A DNA stretch of 54,490 nucleotides from Nitrospirota bacterium (GCA_003229375.1 QIDP01000088.1:1-54490), one strand, 5' to 3'; positions 280-54,274 are shown, counted from the stretch's first letter. Notes: generated by a model from the sequence alone, not told the origin. Numbers and translations are program-made.

Positions 280-1608
280 TCATATCAGATAAGGCGCTTT
301 GGTTTGGGATGTATGACCCTTAATATCCTGGTTTTCGACTGTAAGCAAGTGGGTATTTATAAATTTCTCGAAATCGAGTTCCTCAACATATCTGTTTGGA
401 CCCGATGAGGGCACATTCAATGCCCCATTCAAACCTGTACCACTCTCTTTTATCTTTAAGAGGGTCTTAACCACATTGCTCTCTTCCCTGGATAATTTTT
501 CTAGCCTCTCCACCAGATTCTGCATCTTCTGTATCGGTTCGATAATATCCTCTTTTGCAACACTCTCTGTTTTCTTCAGACCTGGCGACTGGTTTGACAA
601 ATATAATGATAGTTCTTTTAAGTCTTCCGGAGAATAACTTGTCTTTTTCAATTCATTAATGACAAAGGTTTTAAACTTATCGAATCTTCGAGAGGTTTGG
701 GAAGGAGCTGTCCGGGCAGTCTTCTCTTCAACCTTCTTAACAGCAACTTCTGGAATAACATCCGCTTTCTTTTTTGGGCCTACAACAGCCCTCTTCATCA
801 GGTCAAAGGTCCTTTGCCAGAATCCCCTAACACCCTCCCCTTCATAATATGACGTGCCCTCCAGATTGCAGATATTATTTGCCAGATTCGTAATACACCT
901 GCTGGCAGCAGAAGATGGATAGAGAGTGAGAATTAATTTCTGCTGTTTAACCGCATCGGTCATATTCTTATCAGCGAGTACATAACCAAGAGATTCTATA
1001 TCGATCTTCAAAAATTTCTTGACGGCATATGCAAGCTTCTGAAATATCTTCTTTGATTCAGCTTCAGTAGAGACCTGATTTAATAATATCTTAATGTGTC
1101 CCTTAAAATTTTTGGAGACAATCACCTTAATCATGGCATAGGCATCGGTCAGGGATGTCGGCTCGGGTGTGACAATGATCATCACCTCCTCTGAAGCCAG
1201 TACAAAAGAGGTAACATTGGATGATATCCCTGCCGATGTATCTACTAACAGGATATCGGTCCCGCTGTCCAGATTAAGGGAATCCAGTTTGCTCAACAGT
1301 CTTCCCCTCTCTTCTGCACTTAGTTCTGATAACTGTTGAACACCTGAACTCGCAGGGATAATTTTCATCCCTCCGGGCCCCTCCAGGATAATATCCTTCA
1401 ATTCTTTATCACCCAGTATTACATGTTGAAGATCATATTCCGGATTGAGTCCCAATAGTACATTGATATTGGCAAGTCCCAAATCCGCATCAAAGATATA
1501 GACCTTTTTCCCCAACCGGGTAAATGCATAAGCCAGATTTGTGGATATATTAGTCTTGCCAACCCCGCCTTTGCCGCTGGTAACAGTAATTACTCTTGTT
1601 CCTGACAT
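280..1608 (-). CDS. MinD/ParA/FlhG-family P-loop ATPase with ~170-aa C-terminal extension
   Basis: 442-aa ORF; VITVTSGKGGVGKTNISTNLAYAF (deviant Walker A) and DADLGLANINVLLGL as in FlhG/MinD; C-terminal third has no motif I recognise. Confidence 0.85.
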   Translation of the reverse strand: MSGTRVITVTSGKGGVGKTNISTNLAYAFTRLGKKVYIFDADLGLANINVLLGLNPEYDLQHVILGDKELKDIILEGPGGMKIIPASSGVQQLSELSAEERGRLLSKLDSLNLDSGTDILLVDTSAGISSNVTSFVLASEEVMIIVTPEPTSLTDAYAMIKVIVSKNFKGHIKILLNQVSTEAESKKIFQKLAYAVKKFLKIDIESLGYVLADKNMTDAVKQQKLILTLYPSSAASRCITNLANNICNLEGTSYYEGEGVRGFWQRTFDLMKRAVVGPKKKADVIPEVAVKKVEEKTARTAPSQTSRRFDKFKTFVINELKKTSYSPEDLKELSLYLSNQSPGLKKTESVAKEDIIEPIQKMQNLVERLEKLSREESNVVKTLLKIKESGTGLNGALNVPSSGPNRYVEELDFEKFINTHLLTVENQDIKGHTSQTKAPYLI

Positions 1609-1659
1609 AAATGAATCACCTTTTAATTAAATTTAATTGAAACTTACTCATATCACTCT

Positions 1660-3465
1660 TTATACAATAGCCAAAACCTTAGTATGATTGTTCTCTATTA
1701 CAATACTGTATTTAACTGATTCACATCCTATCTTTTCTTTTATGCGAGCTGTATTCTGCACTATAAATTGCAAAAAGAGATTATTTTCCATTCTCTCGGT
1801 AGATTCATTACAGGTTTTCCTTGCCTTTATATAATTTTCAAATAAGTTCTCAACCTCTGATATCTCATTTTTCGGTTCTGATATCCGGGTGCTGCATAAC
1901 TCATTGATATTATCATAGGTATCACGGGCATATGGAAATTCCCGGCCATCATTTTGGTATTCATCTCTGTAAATGATATCCTGAACACGACGTATATCCT
2001 CTTCTGAGGCAAGGTAGTATGTTAGTTTGTAATTGGGCATGCTCTCCTGAAGCTGAACAGCCTCCTCCAGCATATATGTCGGGGAAGAGACTGCAATAGT
2101 CACTTTGTTGTTGTATAAATAGATAGGAACTGCCGAATATTTTTTGGAATAATTCCAGTCAATAATACCGGATAATATCTTCCTGCTCCTTTGAATATTT
2201 GGTAATCCGTCTAACCTGGTAAAAGAGAGATTATATTTATCAGATATAAGATTATTAAACTGTTCTTTGCTGATAGCGCCCTCTTTAAAGTAGAGACCAA
2301 TTTCAAAATCTTTATCAAATTTCCACTGGGGTTTGGAACACCATTTAATGACCGCCGGGGTACTCACAACCCCCAGGTTTTGGGGAAGGATTATCTCTAT
2401 CTTTGACTGAGAGCCGATTATCTTATCTGAAGCGTTCAGGAATTGCTGATCATCTGTCTTCAGCCTGACCCCGTCTATAGAGAGATCCTGGACAATACCA
2501 CGAATCGCTTTTGATGAATCATAGTTCCCGTTTCCATTAGGAAGGAAAAGGTTTATATCCATAGAAACAAACAATCTCGGGGATATCCTTCTCTCAATGC
2601 CTGCTGATTTCATCTTCTTCGATATCTCATTCAGACGATTCTCACAGTAATGACTTATAGTATCCTTAATCATAGGATACTTATCAGTATATCCTTCAAG
2701 ATCGGATTTTTTCAGCTCCAGCAATTCGGAATCCTCTAAAGCCACAACCGATGCTGTGCGGGGTTTACCGGTCAGGAAAGATATCTCTCCAAAAAAGTCA
2801 TCCTCCTTTAAGGTAGCCAGAGCTGTCTCCTGATTATCTGCATCACTAACAAGAATCCTTACCTTACCTGAACTTATGACATAGAGTGAATCGCTAAACT
2901 CCCCTTCTTTTATAATAGAGGACCCCTTAGGAAATTTGTGAAGGGTCATCTTCTTTGCAATCTCGGAGAATTCAGATGGGGTTAAACTGAAAAATATCGG
3001 AAATGAAGAGCGTACCTTGTCCTTATCCATACGAAAGACGGGTCTATCCTTAACCGTGGTTCCCAATCCATGTTTGGAGCAAAATTCGGATAGATCTCTA
3101 CGCAGATCATCAATCTGCTCCCTGGCCCTCTTTCTATCATCTAATCCATGCCTGGCATAGAGCTCGGATAGTTCTTTGTATATAACCTCTTTTGAGGGAT
3201 CGAGACTTACAATAGTCTTATTAATGGCAATGGCCTTGGTTAGAAAACCGTTATTAGCCAGCACATTGGATACATATACATATTCATCTATAGCTGTTTC
3301 AATTGCCCCTTCCTTGACATATAAATCTCCTAATTTTATCCTGAGCTTCAAATTTTTAGGCTCTAACTCTATAAGCTTCTTTAGTTCTATAATAGCCTTG
3401 TCCCAATAGCTCCACCTGCAATACTTTTCAAAATTTTCCTGGATCTGAATTCTGTTTTTGTCCAT
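1660..3465 (-). CDS. multidomain regulator: TPR-like / cNMP-binding / PilZ / PilB-N-terminal-like domain
   Basis: 601-aa ORF; cNMP phosphate-binding cassette FFGEISFLTGKPRTASV; PilZ motifs RRISPR and DLSIDG; YSAVPIYLYNNKVTIAVSSP...YYLASEEDIRRVQDIIY resembles the T2SS-E/PilB N-domain. Confidence 0.8.
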   Translation of the reverse strand: MDKNRIQIQENFEKYCRWSYWDKAIIELKKLIELEPKNLKLRIKLGDLYVKEGAIETAIDEYVYVSNVLANNGFLTKAIAINKTIVSLDPSKEVIYKELSELYARHGLDDRKRAREQIDDLRRDLSEFCSKHGLGTTVKDRPVFRMDKDKVRSSFPIFFSLTPSEFSEIAKKMTLHKFPKGSSIIKEGEFSDSLYVISSGKVRILVSDADNQETALATLKEDDFFGEISFLTGKPRTASVVALEDSELLELKKSDLEGYTDKYPMIKDTISHYCENRLNEISKKMKSAGIERRISPRLFVSMDINLFLPNGNGNYDSSKAIRGIVQDLSIDGVRLKTDDQQFLNASDKIIGSQSKIEIILPQNLGVVSTPAVIKWCSKPQWKFDKDFEIGLYFKEGAISKEQFNNLISDKYNLSFTRLDGLPNIQRSRKILSGIIDWNYSKKYSAVPIYLYNNKVTIAVSSPTYMLEEAVQLQESMPNYKLTYYLASEEDIRRVQDIIYRDEYQNDGREFPYARDTYDNINELCSTRISEPKNEISEVENLFENYIKARKTCNESTERMENNLFLQFIVQNTARIKEKIGCESVKYSIVIENNHTKVLAIV

Positions 3466-3864: not shown

Positions 3865-3894
3865 GGGTGACACGGACAAATAAATTTGTCCGTG
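3865..3894 (+). repeat. REP family 1, divergent copy
   Basis: GGGTGACACGGACAAATAAATTTGTCCGTG versus family consensus GGGTGGCATGGACAAACTTGTTTGTCCGTG; followed by AAATTTTTTAGAGGAAGG and the trxB ATG. Confidence 0.6.
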
Positions 3895-3921
3895 AAATTT
3901 TTTAGAGGAAGGAAAAAAACA

Positions 3922-4848
3922 ATGATGCGAAATATTATTATTATTGGATCCGGTCCTGCAGGACTGACAGCGGCTATCTATGCCTCCAGGGCAAATCTGA
4001 AACCATTAGTGATAGAGGGTCATCAGCCGGGGGGACAACTGACTATTACTACCGAAGTAGAGAATTATCCCGGCTTTCCTGATGGTATCATGGGGCCACA
4101 ACTGATGATGGATATGAAGAGACAGGCGGAACGCCTTGGTACTGAGTTTGTAATGGGATATGTAACATCTGCGGACATCTCAAAGAGACCTTTTGTAATC
4201 TATGTTGGAGAGGATGACAACAGATACGAGGCAAGGGCATTGATAATTGCCTCGGGTGCCTCTGCTAAGCTTCTCGATCTTGAATCAGAGAGGAAGTTGA
4301 TGGGGAAAGGTGTATCTGCTTGTGCAACATGTGACGGGTTTTTCTTCAAAGAGCAGGATGTCATGGTGGTAGGGGGAGGGGATACTGCACTGGAGGAGGC
4401 AATATTCTTGACTAAGTTTGCCGGAAAGGTGACTGTTATACACAGGAGGGATATGTTAAGGGCTACAAAAATATTGCAGGATAAGGCATTTAAGAATGAA
4501 AAGATAGATTTCATATGGGACTCTGTAGTAGAAGATATCCTAGGGGTAGAAGAGGGGAAGGTTACAGGTATAAGGCTAAAAAATGTCAAGACATCAGAGA
4601 TCATTGAGAAGGGTTGTGAAGGCATTTTTATTGCTATCGGTCATTCGCCAAATACGAAGCTGTTTAATAGTCAGATAGAACTGGATGATAAGGGTTACAT
4701 TATTACGAGGGATGGCACTAAAACCAGTGTGCCCGGGGTGTTTGCAGCAGGGGATGCTCAGGATCATGTGTATAAGCAGGCTATTACAGCAGCGGGTACA
4801 GGCTGCATGGCAGCCATAGATGCCGAGAGATTCCTGGGGGAAGAATAA
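3922..4848 (+). CDS. trxB: thioredoxin-disulfide reductase
   Basis: IIIIGSGPAGLTAAIYASRA FAD motif, redox-active CATCDG, VVGGGDTALEEA NADPH motif; start moved to the ATG at 3922 behind AGAGGAAGG (the track ORF starts at a TTG inside the REP). Confidence 0.95.
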   Translation: MMRNIIIIGSGPAGLTAAIYASRANLKPLVIEGHQPGGQLTITTEVENYPGFPDGIMGPQLMMDMKRQAERLGTEFVMGYVTSADISKRPFVIYVGEDDNRYEARALIIASGASAKLLDLESERKLMGKGVSACATCDGFFFKEQDVMVVGGGDTALEEAIFLTKFAGKVTVIHRRDMLRATKILQDKAFKNEKIDFIWDSVVEDILGVEEGKVTGIRLKNVKTSEIIEKGCEGIFIAIGHSPNTKLFNSQIELDDKGYIITRDGTKTSVPGVFAAGDAQDHVYKQAITAAGTGCMAAIDAERFLGEE

Positions 4849-4849
4849 A

Positions 4850-5680
4850 ATGAAGATAAAATTCTGGGGTGTAAGAGGGAGCATTCCAACACCTGGATAT
4901 TCAACCCTCAAGATCGGAGGAAATACCAGTTGTGTTGAGATAAGGGCCGGAGATGAACTGATTATTATTGATGGCGGCAGCGGGCTTAGGTTGCTCGGAG
5001 AAAGTTTATTAAAGGAGATACCCCTTAAGGGGATGTTTCTCTTCAGTCATTATCACTGGGACCATATTCAGGGATTCCCTTTTTTTTCACCTGCATATAT
5101 CAAGGAGAATGAGTTTCAAATCTTCGGGGGAAATGGGTTGAGTTATAGCCTCCAGAAATCTCTCTTCGGACAGATGGACCATCCGAACTTCCCTATTGAA
5201 CTTAAAAACATGGGATCTAAAATGGTATTTCACGAACTCCTTGAGGGGGAGGAAATTATAAAGGGCGGGGTAAAAATATCCAATACCTTTGTGAATCACC
5301 CGAGCAGTTCCCTCGCATATCGCATAGATCATGAGAATAAATCCTTTGTTTATAGTAGTGATACCGAGCATCTTCCTGATGGAGTAGATCAAAAATTACT
5401 GAAGTTTGCAAAAGGCGCTGATATCATTGTATACGATGCGCAGTATACCCCTGAAGAGTATGAGGGAACTCATAAATGGTGGGGATCAAGGAAAGGATGG
5501 GGGCACAGCACCATGATAGAGGGTGTTAAACTGGCAAAAGCGGCTGGCATCAAGAAGCTCGTTCTGTCTCATCACGACCCCTCGCGTGATGATGATGCTA
5601 TAGCAAGGATAGAAAAGGAGGCCCAAAGGCTTTTCCCGAACTCAATAGCAGCCTATGAAGGATTAGAGATATATATATAA
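4850..5680 (+). CDS. MBL-fold metallo-hydrolase
   Basis: MKIKFWGVRGS..., HxHxDH motif SHYHWDHIQG, later SHHDP; ATG at 4850 lies 1 nt after the trxB stop behind GGGGGAAG. Confidence 0.85.
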   Translation: MKIKFWGVRGSIPTPGYSTLKIGGNTSCVEIRAGDELIIIDGGSGLRLLGESLLKEIPLKGMFLFSHYHWDHIQGFPFFSPAYIKENEFQIFGGNGLSYSLQKSLFGQMDHPNFPIELKNMGSKMVFHELLEGEEIIKGGVKISNTFVNHPSSSLAYRIDHENKSFVYSSDTEHLPDGVDQKLLKFAKGADIIVYDAQYTPEEYEGTHKWWGSRKGWGHSTMIEGVKLAKAAGIKKLVLSHHDPSRDDDAIARIEKEAQRLFPNSIAAYEGLEIYI

Positions 5681-5684: not shown

Positions 5685-7700
5685 ATGAAAGAAAGGCTAA
5701 AAGAAATAGAACAAGAGATGATAAGGAACAAAAGGGCCTTCTGTCTCTTTAACAAAAAGAGACTGGAGCGGGCATTAGAGATGCTCCCGGAAATGACCGG
5801 CCTTGCTTTTCAGGTTATACCATTTCTTATACATACCAATCATAAAGGTTTTCCCGGTTATGTTGATGCCCGGGATACCCCATGTGGAATACATTACTTT
5901 GAGTGGTCAAATAATTTGCAGAGGATAACAAGGGAATTTTTTCCGGAAAAGAAGATCCTCTATAAGGGTGCAATAAAGCTCTTTCCAAATATTCCCTCTA
6001 TCGAATCCTTACTCCTGATGGGGAGCATCGGTACTGTGGCACAGACCGAAAGATCTGATTTCGATTACTGGGTCTGTATAAATGAGGAGAATTTTTCTGA
6101 TAAGAGAAAAAAACTGTTGAGAGAAAAATTGAGGCTAATAGAGGATTGGGGATCTTCCGAGTATGAAATGGAGATCCACTTTTTCATGGCAGATATAAAT
6201 AAGGTCAGGAGAGATGACTTTGGAGAAAGTGACAGTGAGAGTGTTGGGTCTGCCCAAAAAAAACTGCTTAAAGAGGAATTTTACAGGACCCTTATCCTGA
6301 TAGCCGGCAAGATACCACTCTGGTGGATAACACCTATTGATATCTCAGATGAGGAATATTCTGAGTGTATTGATATTCTCAAAAAATCGGTTGAACTTGA
6401 GTATGAGAACTTTATTGACCTTGGAAATATACGTGATCTATCCCCAAACGAATTCTTAGGGGCTACCCTCTGGCACAGGATCAAGGCAATGGATTCCCCT
6501 TATAAATCTACCCTGAAAATGGCACTGGTAGAGAAATTCATGGATCAGGATGTACAATCAGAACCTCTCTGTAATCTCTTTAAAAAGAGTGTGATGAAAT
6601 CGCCGGATAATAGCCAAACAATCGATCCTTATACAATAATGTTTGACACAATACTCGATTATTACCAGAAAAAGGGGAATATGGAGATCCTTGATCTGCT
6701 GAAAAAAAGTTTTTATATAAAAACAGATATAAAAGTGAACAGATCTGATCGTTTCAGGAAGGATTTGACCTATAAAGAGAAGGTACTGGTAGATTACGTT
6801 AAAAAGTGGGGATGGGATCAGGAGGTGCTTGAGGATCTGAATAGCTTCAAAGAATGGGACTTTGATAAAATTATATCCTTAGAAAGGGATATGCATAACT
6901 ACATGATACAGGTCTATAAAAACCTTGCTGATAAACTGAAAAAGGAATCAGGTGGTGAGAATCTGATAAAAGATACAGATTTTCAGATGTTAGGGAGGAA
7001 GTTATCCAGCTTTTATGCAAAAAAGCCGAATAAGGTTGAGTCTCTAAAAAAGGCCTTCTGGGAAAAGTTGCCACAGGAGAACCTTACATTCTTATTTAAC
7101 AATAAAAGGGCTAAGTGGTATTTATACAGGGGACATTCTTCAAAGGAGTTTATATTAACTTCCGGGGATCAACACCTTAAGAGCGCTAAAAATATTCTTG
7201 AACTCCTGATATGGATTGTCCACAACAGACTATGCGATGAGAATACTACCTTTTATCTGACACCTAACCCAAAACCCATTACTTTTGCGGATATTCAGAT
7301 ACTTATTAAGGATCTTCTGGACTTCTTTCCAGCGATAAACACAATCGATCTTAAGACATCTGACCTCCTCGCCCCACCCAGAATAGTTAAATTATATCTG
7401 GTAATAAATTTCTCCCTCCAGAAGTCGTTGAATCAGATTAAAGAAGTCACTATATTCTATACCACCACATGGGGAGAGCTATTTTGTGAGACGTATAATC
7501 ACATGAAAGGGATTAAAGAAGCCATTAAATATATCTCGGAGAATCCTCCGGAAAATATCAATGATATCTCTAACTATTACAGGATATTTATCCCGAAGGG
7601 AGATTTTTCTAAGACCATCTTTTCTAATATTAATAATCTGATAACAAAGGAACTCGGGAGTATGGATGAAGGTCTCTATAATAATACCTACTTTGAATGA
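5685..7700 (+). CDS. cyaA: class I adenylate cyclase (CyaA-like)
   Basis: 671-aa ORF; blocks GSIGTVAQTERSDFDYWVC, KKLLKEEFYRTLILIAGK and EFLGATLWHRIKAMDSPYKSTLKMAL match conserved blocks of enterobacterial CyaA as I recall them. Confidence 0.8.
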   Translation: MKERLKEIEQEMIRNKRAFCLFNKKRLERALEMLPEMTGLAFQVIPFLIHTNHKGFPGYVDARDTPCGIHYFEWSNNLQRITREFFPEKKILYKGAIKLFPNIPSIESLLLMGSIGTVAQTERSDFDYWVCINEENFSDKRKKLLREKLRLIEDWGSSEYEMEIHFFMADINKVRRDDFGESDSESVGSAQKKLLKEEFYRTLILIAGKIPLWWITPIDISDEEYSECIDILKKSVELEYENFIDLGNIRDLSPNEFLGATLWHRIKAMDSPYKSTLKMALVEKFMDQDVQSEPLCNLFKKSVMKSPDNSQTIDPYTIMFDTILDYYQKKGNMEILDLLKKSFYIKTDIKVNRSDRFRKDLTYKEKVLVDYVKKWGWDQEVLEDLNSFKEWDFDKIISLERDMHNYMIQVYKNLADKLKKESGGENLIKDTDFQMLGRKLSSFYAKKPNKVESLKKAFWEKLPQENLTFLFNNKRAKWYLYRGHSSKEFILTSGDQHLKSAKNILELLIWIVHNRLCDENTTFYLTPNPKPITFADIQILIKDLLDFFPAINTIDLKTSDLLAPPRIVKLYLVINFSLQKSLNQIKEVTIFYTTTWGELFCETYNHMKGIKEAIKYISENPPENINDISNYYRIFIPKGDFSKTIFSNINNLITKELGSMDEGLYNNTYFE

Positions 7701-8340
7701 GAAGATTAATTTGGAAAAGACCCTCCCTCATCTTGAAAAGATGGAAGACAAAGAGATAATCATTGTAGACGGAGGAAGCACAGATAATACAGCAAGTGTG
7801 GCAAAGAGATATGCGGATAAACTTCTTTTATCATGTCAGGATAGGGGAATCCAGATGAATACTGCTGCACATAATGCTGAGGGTGACATGCTCCTTTTTC
7901 TGCACGCCGATTCGGAACTCTCTACAGATGGATACAATAAATTGCTTGAGGCTTCAGAGGTGAGAGGTATTGCGGGTGGCGCCTTCTACCTCGCAATAGA
8001 TTCAAAACGATTCCTCCTTAAGTTTATCTCCCTTGCAGCCAATCTCAGATCCAAATTATTCAGAATAGCCTATGGGGACCAGGGGATCTTTGTAAGGCGC
8101 GATATCTTCGTTAAAATAGGAGGATTTAACAATCTCCCTTTATTTGAGGATGCAGACCTCTTCAGACGATTAAAGAGGGAAGGAGAGGTGATCTTCATTA
8201 AAAGTATTCTCACATCTGCACGCAGATGGGATGGAGAAGGTGCATTATATACTACTTTCAGGAATATGATACTTGCCTCCTTCTACTTCCTAGGTTTCTC
8301 ACCACAAACACTGATTAGGTGGTATCCAAATGTGAGGTAA
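7666..8340 (+). CDS. family 2 glycosyltransferase
   Basis: MKVSIIIPTLNE, IIVDGGSTDNT, LLFLHADS; start overlaps the cyaA end by 35 nt. Confidence 0.8.
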   Translation: MKVSIIIPTLNEKINLEKTLPHLEKMEDKEIIIVDGGSTDNTASVAKRYADKLLLSCQDRGIQMNTAAHNAEGDMLLFLHADSELSTDGYNKLLEASEVRGIAGGAFYLAIDSKRFLLKFISLAANLRSKLFRIAYGDQGIFVRRDIFVKIGGFNNLPLFEDADLFRRLKREGEVIFIKSILTSARRWDGEGALYTTFRNMILASFYFLGFSPQTLIRWYPNVR

Positions 8341-9485: not shown

Positions 9486-11552
9486 CTATTCCTCACTCAT
9501 TACTATCGTTGGTGTTATAAAGACCAGGAGTTCTGAATCCTCATCCTTCCCTATCTTTTCCCTCTTGAATAACCAGCCCAGTACAGGGATATTGTTCAAC
9601 CACGGGATACCGGACATCTCTCCGGATGTTTTGCTCGTATAAAGACCTCCAATGACTGTGGTATCACCGTCCTTTATCAGAAGCTCTGTGGTTGCCTTTT
9701 TCTGCATTATAGTCGGCATACCCGCTGACTGGTTGGCAAAATCTGCCTCGTCCTTGGTGACCTCTACACTCATAGCTACATAGCTATCAGGGGTAATATG
9801 GGGTGTAACAGTCAAGCTTATACTTGCATCCACAAATTGTGTCCGCGTCCCGCTCGCTGAAACACTCTGGTAAGGAATCCTGCGTCCGCTTTCAATTACT
9901 GCTTCTTTATTATTCAATGTAGTAATCTTTGGATTCGACAATATCCTTCCTTTACCAGAGCTTTCCATGGCAGAAAGCTGGATATCCAGTATCTTTGTAT
10001 TGGCTATATTACCCAGAGTTATCCCTATGCCACCTCCTGCTGTACGGGCAATTGCTGCAGGCAGATCTACTACATAGTTCCCTGTGGTAACTTCCTGAAT
10101 ACCGCCATAAACCTGTGAAGGGGCAGTAAGAGCTCCTTTCACACTGGTGCTGGCAGGAAAGCTTTGGCTGCTGGAGTCAGTAGTGTATGTGCCGCCCCAC
10201 TGGATACCCAGTTCCCTGGTATAGTTACGGTTTATCTCCACAATCCTTGCCTCGATCATAACCTGGGGTGTCCTCCTGTCCAGTGTCTTGATAAGGGTCT
10301 TCATTTCCTCCAGCTTGGGCCTGATATCCTTAAGTATCAAGGTGTTTGTACGGACATCTACTGTTACCGATCCCCTCTCACTCTTAAGGGACTCCAGGTT
10401 ATCCTTCATTTCTGATATATCTGCATAACTTATACGGATTATTTCTGTGAGGAGGGGATCTGCCATCTCCTTTACCTTTTTTGCATCTATCTCTGCCTGT
10501 TTACTCTGTGCCTTATCCTGCTGTTCCTTGAGCAGTTCATTAAGGGGGAGTATTCTGATAATATTTCCCTCCTTCTCCATCCCCAATTTGCCGTTCTTCA
10601 ATATAATATCCAGCGCCTGATCCCATGGCACATTTTTTAAACGTAACGTCACCTTCCCCTTTACAGAGCCGGAGGTTATGATGTTATATCCACTTACCTC
10701 TGTAATAAGGCGAAGGATATTCTGAATATTGGCATTCTGAAAATCAAGGGAGATACGTTTGCCCGTATATTGCTTTTTCTCTTTCCCGGCTTTGGATTTC
10801 GCAGCAGTTACTTCCACAACCTCAGGGACCAGATAATCTTTTTTACCGGACTTTGCTTCTGCCTTTATCTCTATCTCTTCTTTTGTCTCTGACAGGACTT
10901 CGGCAGGAGCTTCTACTTCCACTTCTTCCACTTCTTCTATTGCTTCCACTTCTTCTACCTCTATCTCTTCATTTGTTTCTGACATGACCCCGACAGGGGG
11001 TTCTACTTCCTCCACCTCTACTACTTCTTCTACCTCAACGGCATAGGATGGAAGGATATCAGCAGGTTCTTCTAATAGTGGCTCCTCAATCATGGAGGGA
11101 GGATTTTTAATATCAATAAAGATGATATTGTTTTGGGGTCTCAGTATTTCATAGGGGACAATTTGATTCAGCCCTATCTCTATCCTGGCTATATTGCTCT
11201 CAAATTGAACGGGTTTAATCACATTTACTGCCCCTTTGTTTAGCTCGATAGGATCCTGGAATGTCCCTGTCTCTATACCGGGGATATCAAGTATCAATCT
11301 CAGGGGATTATCCATTTTAAAGGCTGTATACTGAATCACACCATCAAGCTCATCAGTCGCTTCAATAGAGATCCCGACACCATCAGGGAGCGTCTCTGAG
11401 TCGATTCTCATTATAGCCGGTATCTTCTGCATCTCTGTTTCAGGTATTTTGGAGACCTTCCTAACTGCACAACCATATAAAGCCATGCTCGCAATCGATA
11501 TAAAGATCAGCGGTATTATCAATATTTGCAATCTTCTCTTTTGTCTTTTCAC
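9486..11552 (-). CDS. pilQ: type IV pilus secretin PilQ (lipoprotein, AMIN-like N-domain)
   Basis: Lipobox LYGC; AMIN-like segment ...NPLRLILDIPG...; Glu/Val-rich linker; secretin C-domain ...GIPWLNNIPVLGWLFK... Confidence 0.9.
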   Translation of the reverse strand: MKRQKRRLQILIIPLIFISIASMALYGCAVRKVSKIPETEMQKIPAIMRIDSETLPDGVGISIEATDELDGVIQYTAFKMDNPLRLILDIPGIETGTFQDPIELNKGAVNVIKPVQFESNIARIEIGLNQIVPYEILRPQNNIIFIDIKNPPSMIEEPLLEEPADILPSYAVEVEEVVEVEEVEPPVGVMSETNEEIEVEEVEAIEEVEEVEVEAPAEVLSETKEEIEIKAEAKSGKKDYLVPEVVEVTAAKSKAGKEKKQYTGKRISLDFQNANIQNILRLITEVSGYNIITSGSVKGKVTLRLKNVPWDQALDIILKNGKLGMEKEGNIIRILPLNELLKEQQDKAQSKQAEIDAKKVKEMADPLLTEIIRISYADISEMKDNLESLKSERGSVTVDVRTNTLILKDIRPKLEEMKTLIKTLDRRTPQVMIEARIVEINRNYTRELGIQWGGTYTTDSSSQSFPASTSVKGALTAPSQVYGGIQEVTTGNYVVDLPAAIARTAGGGIGITLGNIANTKILDIQLSAMESSGKGRILSNPKITTLNNKEAVIESGRRIPYQSVSASGTRTQFVDASISLTVTPHITPDSYVAMSVEVTKDEADFANQSAGMPTIMQKKATTELLIKDGDTTVIGGLYTSKTSGEMSGIPWLNNIPVLGWLFKREKIGKDEDSELLVFITPTIVMSEE

Positions 11553-11556
11553 TCCC

Positions 11557-41677: not shown

Positions 41678-41689
41678 CTGAAATCCCCC

Positions 41690-41719: not shown

Positions 41720-41792
41720 ACATATAGAGACTCATTTCATCTATTCCACCAACCGCAGCACTCCTTTTCATTTTCTCCCGGACAAAAAAAAT

Positions 41793-41808: not shown

Positions 41809-42147
41809 TAGCTAGTCTATCCATACAAAGGGGGCCGGGACAAAGGGGAATTACAGATGGGCCCGGCTTATTCTAAAGGTCATATCTATATGTTTTAATT
41901 ATCATTATTAAAAAGATATACCTATCAAAAAAAGAGTTTTTTCCTGTCACGATTTTTAAGAGGAGCTTTGATAGAAAAGAGAAATTCTTGTGCAAAAGTT
42001 ATAAAACAGTATTCATGGCGTATACCATATTATACACAGCATATCGGGAGCATTACCTAAGAGACAATGTGTCGCAATATATTAATGAGTTACATGAGAT
42101 TTCAAATAAAGGTTGCAAGGTAAAAACATGTGTATTGTATATAATTA

Positions 42148-50357: not shown

Positions 50358-51923
50358 TTAGCATGTCTCCTTCACAGGAATCATTATCTCAAACCTAGTC
50401 CCCTCACCTTTTTGGGCAGAGACGCTTATCCTCCCTCCCATATCTTCTATAATCCTGTGGCATATAGAGAGACCAAGTCCTGTCCCTTTTCCGGGTTCCT
50501 TTGTGGTGAAGAACGGATCGAATATCCTGGGGACATCCTCTTCACGTATGCCCGCTCCTGTATCTGAAAAGGTTAACCTGACCTGTCTCCCATCATTGCC
50601 GAATCTATCTTCAGGTATATGATTTGTCAGTTCACTGGAGACAGCCATGCTCCCTCCTCTATTTTCTATCATGGCATCTGCCGAGTTCAGCAAGAGGTTT
50701 ATTGCAACCTGCTCCATCTTATGACCATCAAGTCTCAGAGGAGGAATCTCATCCGACAGGTTAAGAGATATCTCTATATTACGAAATGCCTTTTGATTGT
50801 GCAGCAGTTCGACAGAATCCCTAAGAATTTGATTTATATCCACATCTGTTATGATACCCCTGGGGGGTGTAGCAAGATTCAATAACCCTCTTACTATCTC
50901 GTCTATCCTGTCAACCTCCCTCTCAACCCTCCTAAGGGAGTCTATATCCTCTGATGTTCTCTCTTTAGCATTAGACAGGACATTGATATATCCATTTATC
51001 GCTCCTAAGGGATTACCTATCTCATGAGCAACCCCTGCTGCCATTCTCCCGATAGCTGCCAGCCTTTCAGAACGCATAACCTCATCCCTTGCCTCTCTCA
51101 ACTCTATATTTCTCTTCTTGAGGAGTTCTATATGTTTTTCAAGACTTTCTGTCTTATCTCTCAACCTTTCTGTCATCTGGTTAAATGCATAAGAGAGTCT
51201 CCCTATCTCATTATCACTTTCCACTTTTACCTTATGGCCAAGATCGCCATCAGAGACCCTCTCTGTCGCCTCAACCAATCTCTGAATAGGTTTTACTACA
51301 GTCTTTGAAAGGAGAAAGCTGCCAAATATCACCAATATCAGTGCATCGACAGTTATATAGAGAAATGTCAATCCACGCATCTTCAGAAGGATACCTCTCG
51401 GATCGAGTAGTGACATTTCACCACTGATACCACCAACAATTCGTCCTTCAATATATATGGGTGATGTAATGATGAGTTTATCTGTTTTATTCAGAAAAAA
51501 AGAACTTTCTTTCCCTTTCTCTTCTCTGATATCAAATATCCCATTATTAATGCATTTCAGTAAAAATGGATCTTTAAGTGTCTTGCCTGTAAGTTCACTC
51601 CTTGAGGATGCAAGCACCTTCAATCCCTTATCAACTATAGACAGCTCGCTGAATCCCCCTTCTCTGGTATAGAGACCTATCAATTTTGTAATACCGGATT
51701 CCTTCATAATATCCGGGAAGAGAATCGGATCATTTTTCATCATAATAGAGATGCTGTTTTCTATAGAGGAGACCATTACTCTGGTGTTTTGGGACCTGTA
51801 CTCGGTGAAAAGGTGTTTGGTTACCTTTAACAGGATGATACCGATCAGCAGCAGCGCAGCTACCAGAAGGACAGTTATATCAGCTATTATCTCTTTTCTT
51901 AAGCCTTTCTTAATCTTTTTCAT
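50358..51923 (-). CDS. sensor histidine kinase (2 TM, periplasmic sensor, HAMP, HisKA, HATPase)
   Basis: TM helices near aa 15-35 and 185-205; HAMP; H-box AAGVAHEIGNPL; G-boxes DTGAGI, GTGLGLSI. Confidence 0.9.
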   Translation of the reverse strand: MKKIKKGLRKEIIADITVLLVAALLLIGIILLKVTKHLFTEYRSQNTRVMVSSIENSISIMMKNDPILFPDIMKESGITKLIGLYTREGGFSELSIVDKGLKVLASSRSELTGKTLKDPFLLKCINNGIFDIREEKGKESSFFLNKTDKLIITSPIYIEGRIVGGISGEMSLLDPRGILLKMRGLTFLYITVDALILVIFGSFLLSKTVVKPIQRLVEATERVSDGDLGHKVKVESDNEIGRLSYAFNQMTERLRDKTESLEKHIELLKKRNIELREARDEVMRSERLAAIGRMAAGVAHEIGNPLGAINGYINVLSNAKERTSEDIDSLRRVEREVDRIDEIVRGLLNLATPPRGIITDVDINQILRDSVELLHNQKAFRNIEISLNLSDEIPPLRLDGHKMEQVAINLLLNSADAMIENRGGSMAVSSELTNHIPEDRFGNDGRQVRLTFSDTGAGIREEDVPRIFDPFFTTKEPGKGTGLGLSICHRIIEDMGGRISVSAQKGEGTRFEIMIPVKETC

Positions 51924-52014: not shown

Positions 52015-52060
52015 TCGATAATTGAATAAATATCTTTCTAAATTCAGTTTGAACTTACAA

Positions 52061-54274
52061 TCAGATTACCCTATCTCCTCCCATTATAGAGATCTTCTTG
52101 TCAGCCTCGTTTAACCTTGAAATCAGAGAATTGACTATACGAATAGCGATTTCCGGATAGTTCTCAATAGTTTCTTTCAGCTTATCCCCCGGAAAGACCT
52201 TAACTACACTCTTCCCATTCGATTTGACAGTAGCGGTTCTTGCTACATCCATAAGTGCGCTCATCTCGCCAAAATAGTCTCCCGGCTGGGTTATCTCTCC
52301 TACCTTTATGTCATACTTATATATCTCCACGGCTCCCTGAATCAATTGATAGAAATTCTTGTCTGTATTCCCTTCCTTGATTATCACGTCACCATTCTCA
52401 AAGATCAGTTCATCCGGATTCAGGAGATATGCAGGGAGTGCCTCTTTTACCATCACCGTATTCCTCAACACCTCATATATGGTAGTAACCCCCTCCCTGA
52501 TCTTATGCAGCCCTTCCTGACGCAAGGTAGACATGCCCTCCTTTATGGCAATCTTTCTCAACTGCTCCTGAGGAACCTGTGATGTGATTGCCTCCTTAAT
52601 AGTCTCGGGGATCTCCATTATCTCATAGACTGCCACTCTTCCCTTGTACCCTGTGCCGGCACATTTCGGGCACCCCTTGCCTTCAAAGATTTTCAGGCTA
52701 TCAAATTCGTCAGAGGTAAACCCTGCCTCAATCAATTCCCTCTTGTTGGGTTTTACCTCCTCTTTGCAATTGGTACAGATGCGGCGTAAAAGTCTCTGGG
52801 CAATAACCATTGTCAGAGAGGAGGCAATCATATAACCGGGTATGCCTATATCCAGAAGCCTCCATACAGTAGATGGACAGTCATTCGTATGAACTGTGCT
52901 GAATACCAGATGACCTGTCATGGCAGCCTTTATTGCAATCTCGGCTGTTTCCATATCTCTGATCTCACCAACAAGGATGATCTCGGGATCTTGTCTCAAG
53001 AAGGCCCGTAATGCATTTGCAAAGGTCATTCCGATCTCTGTCTTGACATGGACCTGATTGATCCCGGGAAAGTTGAACTCTACAGGGTCCTCTACGGTCA
53101 GGATCTTGGTTTCGACATTATTTAAGGCATTTATCGCAGAATAGAGGGTCGTTGTCTTCCCGCTCCCGGTAGGGCCTGTCACAAGAATCTGACCGAATGG
53201 CCGTTTTATGGTCTTCATAAATTTATCCAATCCCTCTTGTGTAAAACCGAGTTTTGTAAGATCGACATTCAGGGTAGATTTATCCAGAATACGAAGGACT
53301 ATAGACTCTCCAAATAAGGTAGGAAGTGTGGAGACCCTGAAATCAACGGTTCTATTTCTTCCTACCTTCAATTTTATACGTCCGTCCTGAGGGATACGCC
53401 TCTCTGCTATATTCAGATTTGCCAGTATCTTGAACCTGGAAATCAGCGCATTCTTAATCTGTATAGGGAGGTTAAGTGATCTATGGAGGGTGCCGTCAAG
53501 GCGATATCTTACCTGAAAGGTACTTTCAAAGGGCTCTATATGTATATCACTAACACCCATTTTTATCGCCTTTGTCAGGATACTGTTCACCAGTTTGATA
53601 ATAGGGGCATCGCCTGCCGAGTATAGATCTTCTCCGATATCCTTATCATCAGGTTCATTGTCAACAGCTATCTCATCTGTTGCCTCGGAGACAAGTGAGC
53701 CAATATCATCGATATCCTTTATCTCCAATGATTTATCATCGCCTCCACTATCTATCTTCTTGAAGAATCCCTTGTATTCTTCATCACTTATATGGTAATA
53801 GCTCTTATAGGCATCGATTATATCCTTCTCTTGTGAAACCGCGGCCTTTATTGAGAGCTTTGTCATGGTCTGAATATCTTCTATGGTAGTGTTGTTTGTA
53901 GGATCACACATAGCGAGTGTCAATACATTGTTAGCCACCCTAACCGGAAATATCATATGCTCCTTTGCAACTTCATAGGGTAATACCTTGACCGTCTCAG
54001 GGTTAATCTTAAGATCTGTTATCTTTATCGTACTATACCCATACTGCCTGCTCAGGAAATTGATAATGGTATCCTCATCTATAAAACCCATCCTAACCAG
54101 GATTGAACCTATACGACTTTTATTCTTCCTTTGAACGGCTAATGCCTCATCTAACTGGGATTTGGTAATTAGTCCGTCTTTCCTGAGCATATCTCCCAGT
54201 TTTTCATGTTTTATCCCGCCCTTTATTGTCTTTTTAAAAGCTGATTTCTTTTCTGCTAGCTGCACTTGTGCCAT
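52061..54274 (-). CDS. pilB: type IV pilus extension ATPase PilB with C-terminal cNMP-binding domain
   Basis: T2SS-E N-domain, Walker A GPTGSGKTTT, tetracysteine CTNC...CPKC; extra C-terminal ~130 aa with ...GDYFGEMSALMDVARTATV. Confidence 0.9.
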   Translation of the reverse strand: MAQVQLAEKKSAFKKTIKGGIKHEKLGDMLRKDGLITKSQLDEALAVQRKNKSRIGSILVRMGFIDEDTIINFLSRQYGYSTIKITDLKINPETVKVLPYEVAKEHMIFPVRVANNVLTLAMCDPTNNTTIEDIQTMTKLSIKAAVSQEKDIIDAYKSYYHISDEEYKGFFKKIDSGGDDKSLEIKDIDDIGSLVSEATDEIAVDNEPDDKDIGEDLYSAGDAPIIKLVNSILTKAIKMGVSDIHIEPFESTFQVRYRLDGTLHRSLNLPIQIKNALISRFKILANLNIAERRIPQDGRIKLKVGRNRTVDFRVSTLPTLFGESIVLRILDKSTLNVDLTKLGFTQEGLDKFMKTIKRPFGQILVTGPTGSGKTTTLYSAINALNNVETKILTVEDPVEFNFPGINQVHVKTEIGMTFANALRAFLRQDPEIILVGEIRDMETAEIAIKAAMTGHLVFSTVHTNDCPSTVWRLLDIGIPGYMIASSLTMVIAQRLLRRICTNCKEEVKPNKRELIEAGFTSDEFDSLKIFEGKGCPKCAGTGYKGRVAVYEIMEIPETIKEAITSQVPQEQLRKIAIKEGMSTLRQEGLHKIREGVTTIYEVLRNTVMVKEALPAYLLNPDELIFENGDVIIKEGNTDKNFYQLIQGAVEIYKYDIKVGEITQPGDYFGEMSALMDVARTATVKSNGKSVVKVFPGDKLKETIENYPEIAIRIVNSLISRLNEADKKISIMGGDRVI

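What the first reader, a model, noticed from the sequence alone, without database searches (positions are those of the whole stretch)
280..54274. System-level hypothesis: a T4P locus wired to cAMP, c-di-GMP and sigma54 at once
The same 54 kb holds a cyclase, two cNMP-receptor domains (one on PilB itself), PilZ and MshEN-type c-di-GMP sites, and a sigma54 activator with its kinase. It also holds three sigma54-promoted pilus-tip cassettes with four PilY1 paralogs. In Pseudomonas, PilY1 and minor pilins feed surface sensing into cAMP signalling through separate, dispersed components. Here synthesis, reception and output appear physically clustered and partly fused. This is an inference from co-localisation only.
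Basis: inference. Interest (0 to 1): 0.7.

Follow-up and report, generated by a model that had tools for sequence, protein, structure and literature searches.

The report
Pilus gene cluster with cyclic-nucleotide sensors
A 54-kb stretch of a Nitrospinota genome gathers type IV pilus genes with a cAMP-making enzyme, cyclic-nucleotide and c-di-GMP sensor domains (one fused to the pilus extension motor PilB) and three sigma-54-type pilus-tip operons; the fused motor is conserved across the phylum, but the large gene cluster is not.

Summary
The window encodes a short class I adenylate cyclase, a PilB with an N-terminal tandem MshEN c-di-GMP motif and a C-terminal cNMP-binding domain, and a 601-aa TPR/cNMP/PilZ protein. 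It also has pilMNOPQ, an NtrC-family kinase/activator pair, and three paralogous minor-pilin/PilY1 cassettes holding four PilY1 genes. Each cassette sits about 100 nt downstream of a -24/-12 site. One call was wrong: the "MshEN" stretch of the 601-aa protein lacks the c-di-GMP motif.

The PilB-cNMP fusion appears in all 120 best homologues (57-99% identity; Nitrospinota and some "Deltaproteobacteria"), with F, G, E and R of the phosphate-binding cassette invariant and the following A near-invariant (117/120). That is good evidence for direct cyclic-nucleotide input to the motor.

The 54-kb co-localisation is not conserved. In relatives, pilB-cNMP lies among housekeeping genes, and cyaA travels only with a trxB-like gene and a glycosyltransferase. 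Only the closest relatives keep the receptor gene beside cyaA. Sigma-54-type sites ahead of PilY1 cassettes, and adjacent NtrC-type pairs, recur in other phyla.

No evidence bears on a PilY1-to-cAMP feedback loop. I rate this a new variant of a known kind, of moderate interest.

The parts
280..1608 (-). ParA/MinD-family ATPase (442 aa) with a long C-terminal extension. It is the conserved downstream partner of the 601-aa receptor gene.
   Evidence: Pfam ParA/AAA_31/CbiA. The best NCBIfam hits are MinD-like but below cut-off. The same pairing is seen in L007 and L074.
1660..3465 (-). 601-aa multidomain receptor. Domains: SgmX-like TPR (1-105), cNMP-binding (155-286), PilZ barrel (about 300-395, RxxxR and DxSxxG present), PilB-N-terminal-like alpha/beta domain (424-502, no c-di-GMP motif), MXAN_5187_C domain (537-596).
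   Evidence: Only three full-length homologues were found (96, 78 and 73% identity).
3886..4848 (+). Thioredoxin-reductase-like flavoprotein, first gene of the cyaA operon, divergent from the receptor gene.
   Evidence: Pfam Pyr_redox_2 at 180 bits. It is the neighbour of cyaA in L006, L063 and L074, and of the receptor gene in L007 and L008.
4820..5680 (+). Metallo-beta-lactamase-fold hydrolase with an intact HxHxDH motif (likely true start near 4850). It is a candidate cyclic-nucleotide phosphodiesterase, but support is weak.
   Evidence: Pfam Lactamase_B_2. NF041851 'cyclic nucleotide-degrading phosphodiesterase' matches full length at E 7e-14 but far below its cut-off. Orthologues carry precomputed PF23023 Apyc1 hits. 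A profile search against PDB puts RNase Z first and Apyc1 only at E 0.05-0.2.
5685..7700 (+). Short-form class I adenylate cyclase (671 aa).
   Evidence: PF12633 and PF01295. NF006981 aligns 15-631 of 638 positions at 565 bits, below its cut-off of 802. Homologues of about 660 aa occur in Nitrospinota, 'Deltaproteobacteria' and Alteromonadales.
7666..8340 (+). Family-2 glycosyltransferase overlapping the 3' end of cyaA. It is the conserved partner of cyaA.
   Evidence: The cyaA-GT2 pair is seen in L005, L006, L063 and L074.
9486..14512 (-). pilM-pilN-pilO-pilP-pilQ alignment and secretin genes of a type IVa pilus. aroB lies downstream (8408-9496) and a small HTH_3 gene upstream (14516-14716).
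   Evidence: Pfam PilM_2, PilN, PilO, PilP, Secretin/AMIN; HTH_3.
17234..23405 (-). Cassette A: PilV-like (22729-23193), PilW-like (21980-22732), PilX (21118-21672) and PilY1 (17234-21118). Its -24/-12 site is at 23292-23307 and the upstream conserved block at 23389-23405.
24543..35072 (-). Cassette B: GspH/FimU-like (34259-34846), PilV-like (33630-34223), PilW-like (32910-33545), PilX (32203-32784) and two PilY1 genes (28508-32173 and 24543-28355). Its -24/-12 site at 34948-34963 is the best in the window. The conserved block is at 35056-35072.
35368..41895 (-). Cassette C: PilV-like (41093-41698), PilW-like (40254-40982), PilX (39505-40125), a 113-aa ORF (39081-39422) and PilY1 (35368-39102). 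Its -24/-12 site is at 41793-41808 and the conserved block at 41879-41895.
43067..43564 (-). Orphan GspH/FimT-like minor pilin.
   Evidence: Pfam GspH; 41% identical to B1.
48760..50139 (-). NtrC-family sigma-54 activator (receiver, AAA+, HTH_8). Its sigma-54 contact loop reads GAFTDA rather than GAFTGA.
50358..51923 (-). Histidine kinase with two predicted transmembrane segments, a periplasmic region of about 150 aa, HAMP, HisKA and HATPase domains. It does not have the PilS architecture.
52061..54274 (-). PilB extension ATPase with an N-terminal tandem MshEN c-di-GMP motif (residues 25-77) and a C-terminal cNMP-binding domain (625-706).
   Evidence: TIGR02538 at 746 bits (cut-off 676). NF053729 at 65 bits (cut-off 38). 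PF00027 at 54 bits. F-G-E and R of the phosphate-binding cassette are invariant in 120/120 homologues and the following A is present in 117/120.

Best explanation
The window is a type IVa pilus supercluster of an uncultured Nitrospinota bacterium. Three regulatory layers act on the pilus, but they were assembled here by lineage-specific gene order rather than as one conserved unit.

(1) Motor level. PilB is a three-part protein. Its N-terminal MshEN motif is expected to bind c-di-GMP, as in MshE and Myxococcus PilB. Its C-terminal CRP/PKA-type domain is expected to bind a cyclic mononucleotide. The most likely ligand is cAMP made by the class I cyclase encoded in the same window. Pilus extension would then respond to both messengers post-translationally.

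(2) Accessory level. This layer is confined to this genus-level lineage. A 601-aa protein combines an SgmX-like TPR head, a cNMP domain, a canonical PilZ domain and a PilB-N-terminal-like domain. It is paired with a ParA/MinD ATPase and transcribed divergently from trxB-MBL-cyaA-GT2. It probably acts as a messenger-controlled adaptor or positioning factor for the pilus machine.

(3) Transcription level. Three paralogous minor-pilin/PilY1 cassettes are each driven by a sigma-54-type promoter with a shared upstream element centred about 104-126 nt before the inferred transcription start. They are probably activated by the neighbouring NtrC-family kinase/activator pair. This would give alternative or additive pilus-tip complexes, as with the three cassettes of Myxococcus xanthus.

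Shown: domain content, motif integrity, conservation of the PilB fusion, paralogy of the cassettes, and the shared promoter architecture.

Inferred: ligand identity, effect on ATPase activity, which activator serves the promoters, and any cross-talk between the layers.
For: - Domain and motif calls.
- PilB fusion: present in all 120 best homologues. F, G, E and R of the phosphate-binding cassette are invariant and the A is near-invariant at 117/120.
- Absence elsewhere: PilB-like ATPases next to PilY1 cassettes in other phyla lack the tail.
- Cyclase: conserved in the same phylum.
- Co-occurrence: pilB-cNMP and cyaA both occur in assembly ERZ26661914 at similar coverage.
- Receptor/cyclase divergent arrangement: conserved in L008, L063 and L074.
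- The 601-aa protein: AlphaFold model with confident TPR and CNB domains and a beta-barrel at the PilZ position. Foldseek top hits are cAMP-bound CRP and GlxR. NCBIfam shows local similarity to the SgmX N-terminus, the PilB N-terminus and the MXAN_5187_C domain.
- Cassettes: paralogous at 36-65% identity.
- Promoters: three -24/-12 sites at matching distances from the start codons, plus a unique shared 17-nt block.
- Other lineages: sigma-54-type site 55-160 nt upstream of the prepilin gene heading PilY1 cassettes in 8 other loci, and a kinase/activator pair adjacent to cassettes in L018, L036 and L048.
- Independent assemblies: local gene orders confirmed.
Against: - The large-scale linkage is not conserved, so co-localisation itself carries little weight.
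- No binding or expression data exist.
- The ligand of either cNMP domain is unknown. The residue after the invariant Arg varies (T, N, S or A) across the PilB family.
- The activator has GAFTDA instead of the canonical GAFTGA. By analogy with NtrC G219 mutants (my recollection of the literature, not checked here), this could weaken sigma-54 activation. A sister assembly has GAFTGA.
- The kinase is not PilS-like. No pilA, pilC, pilT, pilD or rpoN gene is in the window.
- The PilZ Pfam score is below its cut-off.
- The promoter for cassette A scores only 12.1 and starts GGG rather than TGG.
- Contiguity of the whole 54 kb rests on a single assembly.
Confidence: 0.55

Rival explanations
1. Coincidental neighbourhood. 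The pilus genes, the cAMP module and the two-component system are functionally independent, and rearrangement in this lineage placed them side by side. Under this reading cAMP made by CyaA mainly serves other targets, for example the co-transcribed glycosyltransferase pathway or CRP-type regulators elsewhere. The 601-aa/ParA pair would serve a non-pilus process.
For: - In relatives, cyaA keeps only trxB-like and GT2 neighbours and has no pilus genes within 10 kb.
- pilB-cNMP sits among housekeeping genes in L003, L004 and L065.
- The window carries 11 REP-like elements and a RAYT-type transposase that could promote rearrangement.
- A small stand-alone cNMP-binding protein lies near cyaA in L005.
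Against: - The PilB-cNMP fusion links a cyclic nucleotide to the pilus motor regardless of gene order.
- The 601-aa protein has local similarity to the N-termini of SgmX and PilB.
- Cyclase and fused PilB share the same phylum-level distribution.
Confidence: 0.25
2. The cNMP-type domains do not sense cAMP. They bind another ligand (cGMP, another cyclic mononucleotide or a non-nucleotide) or act only as structural or oligomerisation modules. The 'cAMP wiring' would then be nominal.
For: - CRP/FNR-type domains are known to bind diverse ligands (general knowledge).
- The residue after the conserved Arg varies (T 47, N 27, S 25, A 13 of 120).
- An MBL hydrolase related to broad-specificity cyclic-nucleotide phosphodiesterases sits next to cyaA.
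Against: - F-G-E and R-x-A of the phosphate-binding cassette, which contact the ribose phosphate in PKA and CRP, are invariant or near-invariant in 120 homologues and in the 601-aa orthologues.
- A class I cyclase is encoded beside one receptor and is conserved in the phylum.
- The closest structural matches are cAMP-bound CRP and GlxR.
Confidence: 0.15
3. The three cassettes are redundant or decaying duplicates. The -24/-12 matches would be inherited sequence without present function, and expression would depend on other promoters.
For: - Cassette A's first pilin has an odd 33-residue leader and is shorter than its paralogues.
- REP elements are inserted between cassette genes.
- The activator has a non-canonical GAFTDA loop.
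- The cassette A site scores low.
Against: - All four PilY1 genes and all minor pilin genes are intact open reading frames at 36-65% identity, i.e. old duplicates maintained.
- The promoter and the upstream block stay conserved while flanking DNA has diverged.
- The same promoter-to-prepilin layout is found in distant lineages.
Confidence: 0.1

Closest known systems
MshE / PilB c-di-GMP-binding secretion ATPases (Vibrio cholerae MshE, Myxococcus xanthus PilB; Wang et al. 2016, PMC5013675)
   Same: It has the same ATPase family and the same tandem 24-residue N-terminal motif with a 5-residue spacer. It scores above the NCBIfam cut-offs for PilB and for the MshE-type motif.
   Different: It carries an extra C-terminal CRP/PKA-type cNMP-binding domain. 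This domain is not mentioned in that paper or in any paper my searches found.
Pseudomonas aeruginosa surface-sensing circuit (Pil-Chp, CyaB, cAMP-Vfr, fimU-pilVWXY1E, PilY1, SadC; general knowledge)
   Same: It involves cAMP, c-di-GMP, minor pilins and a PilY1 with an N-terminal vWA-type DxSxS motif (invariant D54-N55-S56-x-S58 in all four paralogues).
   Different: - Here the cyclase is class I, not the class III CyaB.
- Reception is fused to PilB rather than to a Vfr-type transcription factor.
- The cassettes have sigma-54-type promoters rather than Vfr/AlgR control.
- No Pil-Chp genes are in the window.
- No evidence exists for PilY1 feeding back to the cyclase.
Myxococcus xanthus three minor-pilin/PilY1 clusters and the polar activator SgmX (PMC8833165, PMC7519303)
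   Same: It also has three paralogous sets of minor pilins plus PilY1. It also has a TPR protein with local similarity to the SgmX N-terminus (E 1e-11).
   Different: - The cassettes here are contiguous, and one holds two PilY1 genes.
- The SgmX-like head is short (about 105 aa against 1065 aa for SgmX) and is fused to cNMP and PilZ domains.
- No MglA or FrzS is in the window.
PilS-PilR control of pilin genes via sigma-54 (Pseudomonas, Myxococcus, Geobacter; general knowledge)
   Same: It has an NtrC-family activator next to pilB, and -24/-12 promoters ahead of pilin-type genes.
   Different: - The targets appear to be minor-pilin/PilY1 cassettes, and no major pilin gene is nearby.
- The kinase has a periplasmic domain plus HAMP instead of the six-helix PilS sensor.
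- The activator loop reads GAFTDA.

Membership tests
Type IVa pilus extension ATPase PilB | Full-length match to the PilB equivalog model above its curated cut-off | tested here: met
   TIGR02538 scores 745.7 bits against a cut-off of 675.65, covering residues 25-607.
Type IVa pilus extension ATPase PilB | Walker A box and tetracysteine zinc motif | tested here: met
   GPTGSGKT and CTNC...CPKC can be read directly in the translation.
MshEN c-di-GMP receptor domain | Tandem 24-residue motif [RK]hGxxhhxxGhhxxxxhxxxhxxQ with a 5-residue spacer | tested here: met
   PilB has KLGDMLRKDGLITKSQLDEALAVQ-RKNKS-RIGSILVRMGFIDEDTIINFLSRQ. NF053729 scores 65.4 bits against a cut-off of 38. For the 601-aa protein the same test is not met: there is no motif and only the C-terminal subdomain matches.
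MshEN c-di-GMP receptor domain | Measured c-di-GMP binding | not testable with these tools
   Needs purified protein.
CRP/PKA-type cyclic-nucleotide-binding domain | Pfam PF00027 above its gathering score, with a phosphate-binding cassette FGE...R[ST]A | tested here: met
   PilB scores 54.1 bits and the 601-aa protein 85.3 bits, against a cut-off of 27.5. The cassettes are FGEMSALMDVARTA and FGEISFLTGKPRTA. F, G, E and R are invariant and A is present in 117/120 PilB homologues.
CRP/PKA-type cyclic-nucleotide-binding domain | Ligand identity (cAMP versus cGMP or other) | not testable with these tools
   Sequence does not decide it. The residue after Arg varies in the family.
PilZ c-di-GMP receptor domain | Pfam PF07238 above its gathering score | tested here: not met
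   19.5 bits against a cut-off of 22.5.
PilZ c-di-GMP receptor domain | RxxxR and [DN]xSxxG motifs on a beta-barrel | tested here: met
   RISPR and DLSIDG are conserved in 4 orthologues. The AlphaFold model has beta strands over residues 302-392 at pLDDT about 65-78.
Class I adenylate cyclase (CyaA type) | N-terminal and catalytic Pfam domains above their cut-offs | tested here: met
   PF12633 scores 189.5 bits and PF01295 scores 218.9 bits.
Class I adenylate cyclase (CyaA type) | Equivalog-level match, and the C-terminal regulatory domain of enterobacterial CyaA | tested here: not met
   The best NCBIfam model, NF006981 (short form, 638 positions), gives 565 bits against a cut-off of 802. The protein is 671 aa and matches only the first ~560-580 positions of the 841-956-position NCBIfam class I models (e.g. 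14-561 of 841).
Sigma-54-dependent promoter with bacterial enhancer-binding protein | GG-N10-GC element at the right distance and orientation ahead of the operon | tested here: met
   Three sites, each about 96-100 nt before the first start codon. The PWM used is my own approximation of the published consensus.
Sigma-54-dependent promoter with bacterial enhancer-binding protein | Activator with a canonical GAFTGA loop, and rpoN present | tested here: inconclusive
   The loop reads GAFTDA in the window and in L076, and GAFTGA in sister assembly L075. rpoN is not in the window.
PilS-PilR two-component system | PilS-type sensor with six transmembrane helices and no periplasmic domain; major pilin gene as adjacent target | tested here: not met
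   The kinase has two hydrophobic segments flanking about 150 residues, then HAMP. No pilA-like gene lies between 47581 and 48760. The best NCBIfam matches are AtoS/AtoC-like and below cut-off.
PilY1 tip adhesin with minor-pilin priming complex | PilY1 beta-propeller domain, preceded by GspH/PilV/PilW/PilX-type prepilins | tested here: met
   PF05567 scores 62-94 bits in all four proteins. N_methyl, PilX_N and GspH hits are found in the upstream genes.

The most novel reading that the evidence does not exclude
PilB of Nitrospinota would be a two-messenger coincidence detector. Extension would require or integrate c-di-GMP at the N-terminus and cAMP at the C-terminus. In this lineage a second dual receptor, the 601-aa SgmX-like TPR/cNMP/PilZ protein, would be positioned by its ParA/MinD partner. 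It would dock on the pilus base through its PilB-N-like domain to decide where or whether pili are made. Cyclic-nucleotide control of a type IV pilus would then act directly on the motor rather than through a CRP/Vfr transcription factor.
Probability: 0.25. Interest if true: 0.7.

Novelty: new variant of a known kind. Interest (0 to 1): 0.5.

Why it matters
Second-messenger control of type IV pili is well studied. c-di-GMP is known to act on MshE and PilB, and cAMP acts through Vfr/CRP-type transcription factors. A PilB with its own cyclic-mononucleotide sensor, conserved across an environmentally important nitrite-oxidising phylum and some Desulfobacterota, would be a direct post-translational cAMP input to the extension motor. 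It would also be a natural system for asking how two messengers are integrated in one ATPase. This is directly testable with recombinant protein. The sigma-54-type promoters ahead of PilY1/minor-pilin cassettes in several phyla also suggest a widespread and little-described way of switching pilus-tip complexes.

Tried and rejected
- The first genome-contig scan with CyaA as a single protein found nothing. I used the second scan for a PilY1 alignment instead.
- I looked for an NtrC-type palindrome, TGCAC-N7-GTGCA, as a common enhancer. There is one exact copy upstream of cassette B (35264-35280). The count in the window is no higher than in shuffles, and cassettes A and C have none. I rejected it as a shared element.
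- I tried to pin down the MBL hydrolase as an Apyc1-type cyclic-nucleotide phosphodiesterase. The local Pfam copy gives only generic MBL hits and a non-significant class II phosphodiesterase hit. PDB sequence and profile searches put RNase Z first and Apyc1 at E 0.05-0.2. It stays a candidate only.
- The exhaustive search with the PilB tail could not size the fusion family. At 50% clustering it collapses into a few representatives, and multi-cNMP eukaryotic proteins crowd the list.
- Many PWM hits in related loci fall inside the PilY1 coding sequence, at the conserved DGMLHAF peptide encoded as GGCATGCTNCATGC. I discounted these as false positives.
- Rfam found no riboswitch or other RNA family.
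- There is no solved structure of a class I cyclase to check catalytic residues against.
- Literature searches found no description of a PilB-cNMP fusion. The library is incomplete, so this is absence of evidence only.

Full report
**What is in the window**

Pfam and NCBIfam scans of all ORFs of at least 100 aa give the following map.

- **Left end, minus strand.** A ParA/MinD-family ATPase (280-1608) and a 601-aa multidomain protein (1660-3465).
- **Divergent operon, plus strand.** A thioredoxin-reductase-like gene (3886-4848), an MBL-fold hydrolase (4820-5680), a 671-aa class I adenylate cyclase (5685-7700) and a family-2 glycosyltransferase overlapping its end (7666-8340).
- **Pilus base, minus strand.** aroB, then pilQ-P-O-N-M (9486-14512), with a small HTH gene upstream.
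- **Two Lcl_C-domain proteins** on the plus strand (15447-16906).
- **Three minor-pilin/PilY1 cassettes, minus strand.** Together they span 17234 to 41698.
- **Further right.** pyrE, an orphan GspH-type pilin, an IS200/Y1-type transposase, a 982-aa protein with no family, and a toxin-antitoxin remnant.
- **Right end, minus strand.** An NtrC-family activator (48760-50139), a HAMP histidine kinase (50358-51923) and pilB (52061-54274).

No tRNA and no Rfam family is present.

**Check of the observation**

- **PilB.** It passes the PilB equivalog model (746 bits, cut-off 676) and the MshE-type c-di-GMP motif model (65 bits, cut-off 38).
- **PilB motif.** The tandem motif KLGDMLRKDGLITKSQLDEALAVQ-RKNKS-RIGSILVRMGFIDEDTIINFLSRQ can be read directly.
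- **PilB C-terminus.** Residues 625-706 are a cNMP-binding domain (54 bits) with the cassette FGEMSALMDVARTATV.
- **601-aa protein, cNMP domain.** It is strong (85 bits, cassette FGEISFLTGKPRTASV).
- **601-aa protein, PilZ region.** It falls just under the Pfam cut-off. It still has RISPR and DLSIDG, conserved in all four orthologues.
- **601-aa protein, "MshEN".** This covers only the C-terminal subdomain of the profile and has no c-di-GMP motif.

The four PilY1 proteins (1221-1294 aa) all match PF05567. They share an invariant N-terminal D-N-S-x-S, a vWA-type metal-site motif. The cassettes are true paralogues: PilV-, PilW-, PilX- and PilY1-like members are 36-65% identical.

**Promoters**

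I scored the window with a position weight matrix that I built from memory of the published sigma-54 consensus. It is my approximation, not a curated matrix.

- The best site in the window (16.3 bits, TGGCATACATATTGCT) lies upstream of cassette B.
- Sites scoring 13.1 (TGGTACATATAATGCA) and 12.1 (GGGCACATATTTTGCG) lie upstream of cassettes C and A.
- Among the ten best sites these are the only intergenic ones. Each lies 96-100 nt before the first start codon and points the right way.
- Sites scoring at least 12 number 10, against 3.0 in shuffles.

Alignment of the three upstream regions shows a 17-nt block, AAACAWATAGWTATRAC. It contains the near-palindrome CAWATAG-WTATG and lies 70-92 nt upstream of each -24 element. 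It occurs nowhere else in the window (0.11 expected). Its centre falls about 104-126 nt before the inferred start, where enhancer-binding proteins usually bind. This placement is an inference.

The protein genes have diverged to 36-60% identity while these DNA elements stayed alike. I therefore take the promoter architecture to be functional.

**Organism and relatives**

- PilB has a 99% identical homologue annotated from a Nitrospinota MAG.
- All 120 best homologues (57-99% identity) carry MshEN, T2SSE and cNMP_binding. They are labelled Nitrospinota/Nitrospinae, "Deltaproteobacteria" or Candidatus Adiutricales.
- Across these 120, F, G, E and R of the phosphate-binding cassette are invariant and the following A is present in 117. 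This argues that ligand binding is under selection.
- PilB-like ATPases next to PilY1 cassettes in other phyla stop at the end of the ATPase and lack the tail.
- I found no paper describing this fusion. The searchable library is incomplete.

**Comparative test of the linkage**

*pilB-cNMP.*
- In relatives at 71%, 67% and 63% identity it sits alone among housekeeping genes (L004, L003, L065-L073).
- At 60% identity it is followed by a 528-aa gene and a sigma-54 activator, with no PilY1 or cyaA within 10 kb (L001).

*The cyclase.*
- It belongs to a short (about 660 aa) class I family found in Nitrospinota, "Deltaproteobacteria" and Alteromonadales.
- In L005 and L006 it keeps the glycosyltransferase, and in L006 also the trxB-like gene. 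No pilus genes are nearby.
- Assembly ERZ26661914 holds both a cyaA contig and a pilB-cNMP contig at similar coverage (10.7x and 11.3x). The two genes probably co-occur unlinked in one genome.

*The 601-aa protein.*
- It has only three full-length homologues (96, 78 and 73% identity).
- Its pairing with the ParA-like gene and the divergent trxB-like gene is conserved.
- The full arrangement, receptor divergent from trxB-MBL-cyaA-GT2, is seen in L063 and L074, with L008 consistent as far as its contig reaches (trxB-MBL). It is absent from the 73% relative L007, where trxB is followed by a carbamoyltransferase.

*Independent assembly.* A sister MAG (GCA_048054665.1) confirms the local orders GT2-cyaA-MBL-trxB / receptor-ParA-leuA and glgC-...-pilB-kinase-activator. 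Its contigs end where the window continues, so the 54-kb contiguity rests on one assembly.

**PilY1 cassettes elsewhere**

A genome scan with the four-paralogue alignment returned 54 loci. They come mostly from Nitrospirota, Thermodesulfovibrionia and Desulfobacterota.

- Several hold two or three PilY1 genes within about 20 kb (L014, L026, L037, L039, L042).
- A kinase/activator pair 42-48% identical to the window's activator lies directly beside the cassette in L018, L036 and L048.
- In eight loci a sigma-54-type site lies 55-160 nt upstream of a prepilin gene heading the cassette (L014, L021, L023, L044, L048, L049, L050, L061).

Sigma-54 control of tip cassettes by an adjacent NtrC-type system is therefore a recurring theme.

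**The 601-aa protein**

- **AlphaFold model.** Built from a shallow alignment (mean pLDDT 66). It gives a confident TPR head (1-105) and a disordered linker. These are followed by a confident CNB domain (155-286) and a beta-barrel at the PilZ position (about 300-395). An alpha/beta domain (424-502) and a helical C-terminus complete the model.
- **Foldseek.** Top hits are cAMP-bound CRP and GlxR.
- **NCBIfam.** Residues 1-114 resemble the N-terminus of the Myxococcus pilus activator SgmX (E 1e-11). Residues 392-505 resemble PilB residues 35-142. Residues 537-596 match the MXAN_5187_C domain above its cut-off.

These are local similarities, not membership of the SgmX family.

**Mechanism I consider most likely**

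1. PilB integrates c-di-GMP (N-terminus) and a cyclic mononucleotide (C-terminus), probably cAMP from the class I cyclase.
2. In this lineage a second dual receptor with a ParA/MinD partner modulates or positions the machine.
3. The three cassettes are alternative tip complexes, switched on through sigma-54 by the adjacent kinase/activator in response to an extracytoplasmic signal. The kinase has a periplasmic domain of about 150 residues plus HAMP and is not PilS-like.

Domain content, motif integrity, conservation and promoter architecture are shown. Ligand identity, the effect on the motor, the identity of the activator for these promoters and any cross-talk are inferred.

**Caveats**

- The activator's sigma-54 contact loop reads GAFTDA in the window and in one other assembly, but GAFTGA in the sister MAG. 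GSFTDA occurs in an Adiutricales homologue. From my recollection of NtrC genetics, changes at this glycine impair activation. The variant therefore deserves testing.
- No pilA, pilC, pilT, pilD, rpoN or Pil-Chp gene is in the window.
- Nothing here addresses whether PilY1 signals to the cyclase, which is the Pseudomonas-like part of the hypothesis.

**Comparison with known systems, and novelty**

The parts belong to known families:
- MshE/PilB-type c-di-GMP receptors (PMC5013675);
- CRP/PKA-type cNMP domains;
- PilZ;
- class I cyclases;
- NtrC-type activators;
- PilY1/minor-pilin priming complexes, including three alternative clusters in M. xanthus (PMC8833165);
- the TPR activator SgmX (PMC7519303).

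Two things are new. One is the combination, above all the phylum-wide PilB-cNMP fusion. The other, in this lineage, is a TPR/cNMP/PilZ/PilB-N-like receptor beside the cyclase. I rate this a new variant of a known kind.

The system-level claim that synthesis, reception and output form one conserved physical unit is not upheld. The narrower claim survives: cyclic nucleotides and c-di-GMP converge directly on the pilus motor.

Noticed in passing
window 15452, 16910, 17168, 21706, 32829, 33588, 34876, 40156, 41690, 43688, 47692 (27-nt cores); ORF 43664-44296(-): There are eleven copies of a REP-like palindromic element, TGGCATGGACAAACTTGTTTGTCCGTG (0 expected by chance). Some have 90-nt conserved flanks. 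Most lie 20-110 nt upstream of a start codon, in the same orientation as the gene, and their G-rich 3' flank sits where a ribosome-binding site would be. An IS200/Y1-type transposase gene (a probable RAYT) carries one copy at its 3' end. The core folds into a 10-bp hairpin.
   Followed up: partly
window 49503 region (activator residues about 212-217); L075, L076, L018: The sigma-54 contact loop of the activator reads GAFTDA in the window and in L076. It reads GAFTGA in the near-identical sister MAG (L075). GSFTDA occurs in an Adiutricales homologue next to a PilY1 cassette. This is a natural polymorphism at a residue thought to matter for activation.
   Followed up: partly
window 4820-5680(+): An MBL-fold hydrolase with an intact HxHxDH motif is wedged between the trxB-like gene and cyaA. 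Its orthologues carry precomputed Apyc1 (anti-Pycsar cyclic-nucleotide phosphodiesterase) Pfam hits. It could be the degrading arm of the cAMP module. However, PDB and NCBIfam evidence is weak and RNase Z is the best sequence match.
   Followed up: partly
window 5685-8340(+); L005, L006, L063, L074: cyaA and a 224-aa family-2 glycosyltransferase overlap by 35 nt. The pair stays together in all four relatives examined, often with a trxB-like gene upstream. The functional reason for a cyclase-glycosyltransferase pair is unexplained.
   Followed up: partly
window 23095-23193(-): The first pilin of cassette A has a 33-residue leader (MRDHTKLRAFVLADEVAIFTYRETKNFPKQEEKG|FTLLE). By my reading it resembles the N-terminus of 'four-helix-bundle / 23S rRNA intervening sequence' proteins. 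No alternative start codon lies nearer the cleavage site, and the mature part is shorter than in its paralogues.
   Followed up: no
window 44633-47581(-): A 982-aa protein has a signal-peptide-like N-terminus and an HEYGH (HExxH-type) motif but matches no Pfam or NCBIfam family. It lies between the transposase and the activator gene.
   Followed up: no
window 14516-14716(-): A 66-aa XRE-type HTH_3 protein gene abuts the start of pilM on the same strand. It is a possible local regulator of pilMNOPQ.
   Followed up: no
window 35264-35280: An exact NtrC-type palindrome, TGCACCGCTTCCGTGCA, lies about 300 nt upstream of the cassette B promoter. It is not shared by cassettes A and C, and the motif is not enriched in the window.
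   Followed up: yes
window 48412-48808(+); L076 5538-6050: A UPF0175 antitoxin gene is followed by a truncated DUF3368 (PIN-like) ORF of 51 aa. The related assembly L076 has a 108-aa DUF3368 gene at the same place, so the toxin looks decayed in the window.
   Followed up: partly
window 15447-16906(+) and 23691-24389(-): Two secreted Lcl_C (DUF1566) domain proteins, one with a Big_2 domain, lie next to pilM. A DUF4124/FxLYD-domain protein lies between cassettes A and B. They are possible surface or adhesion accessories of unknown role.
   Followed up: no
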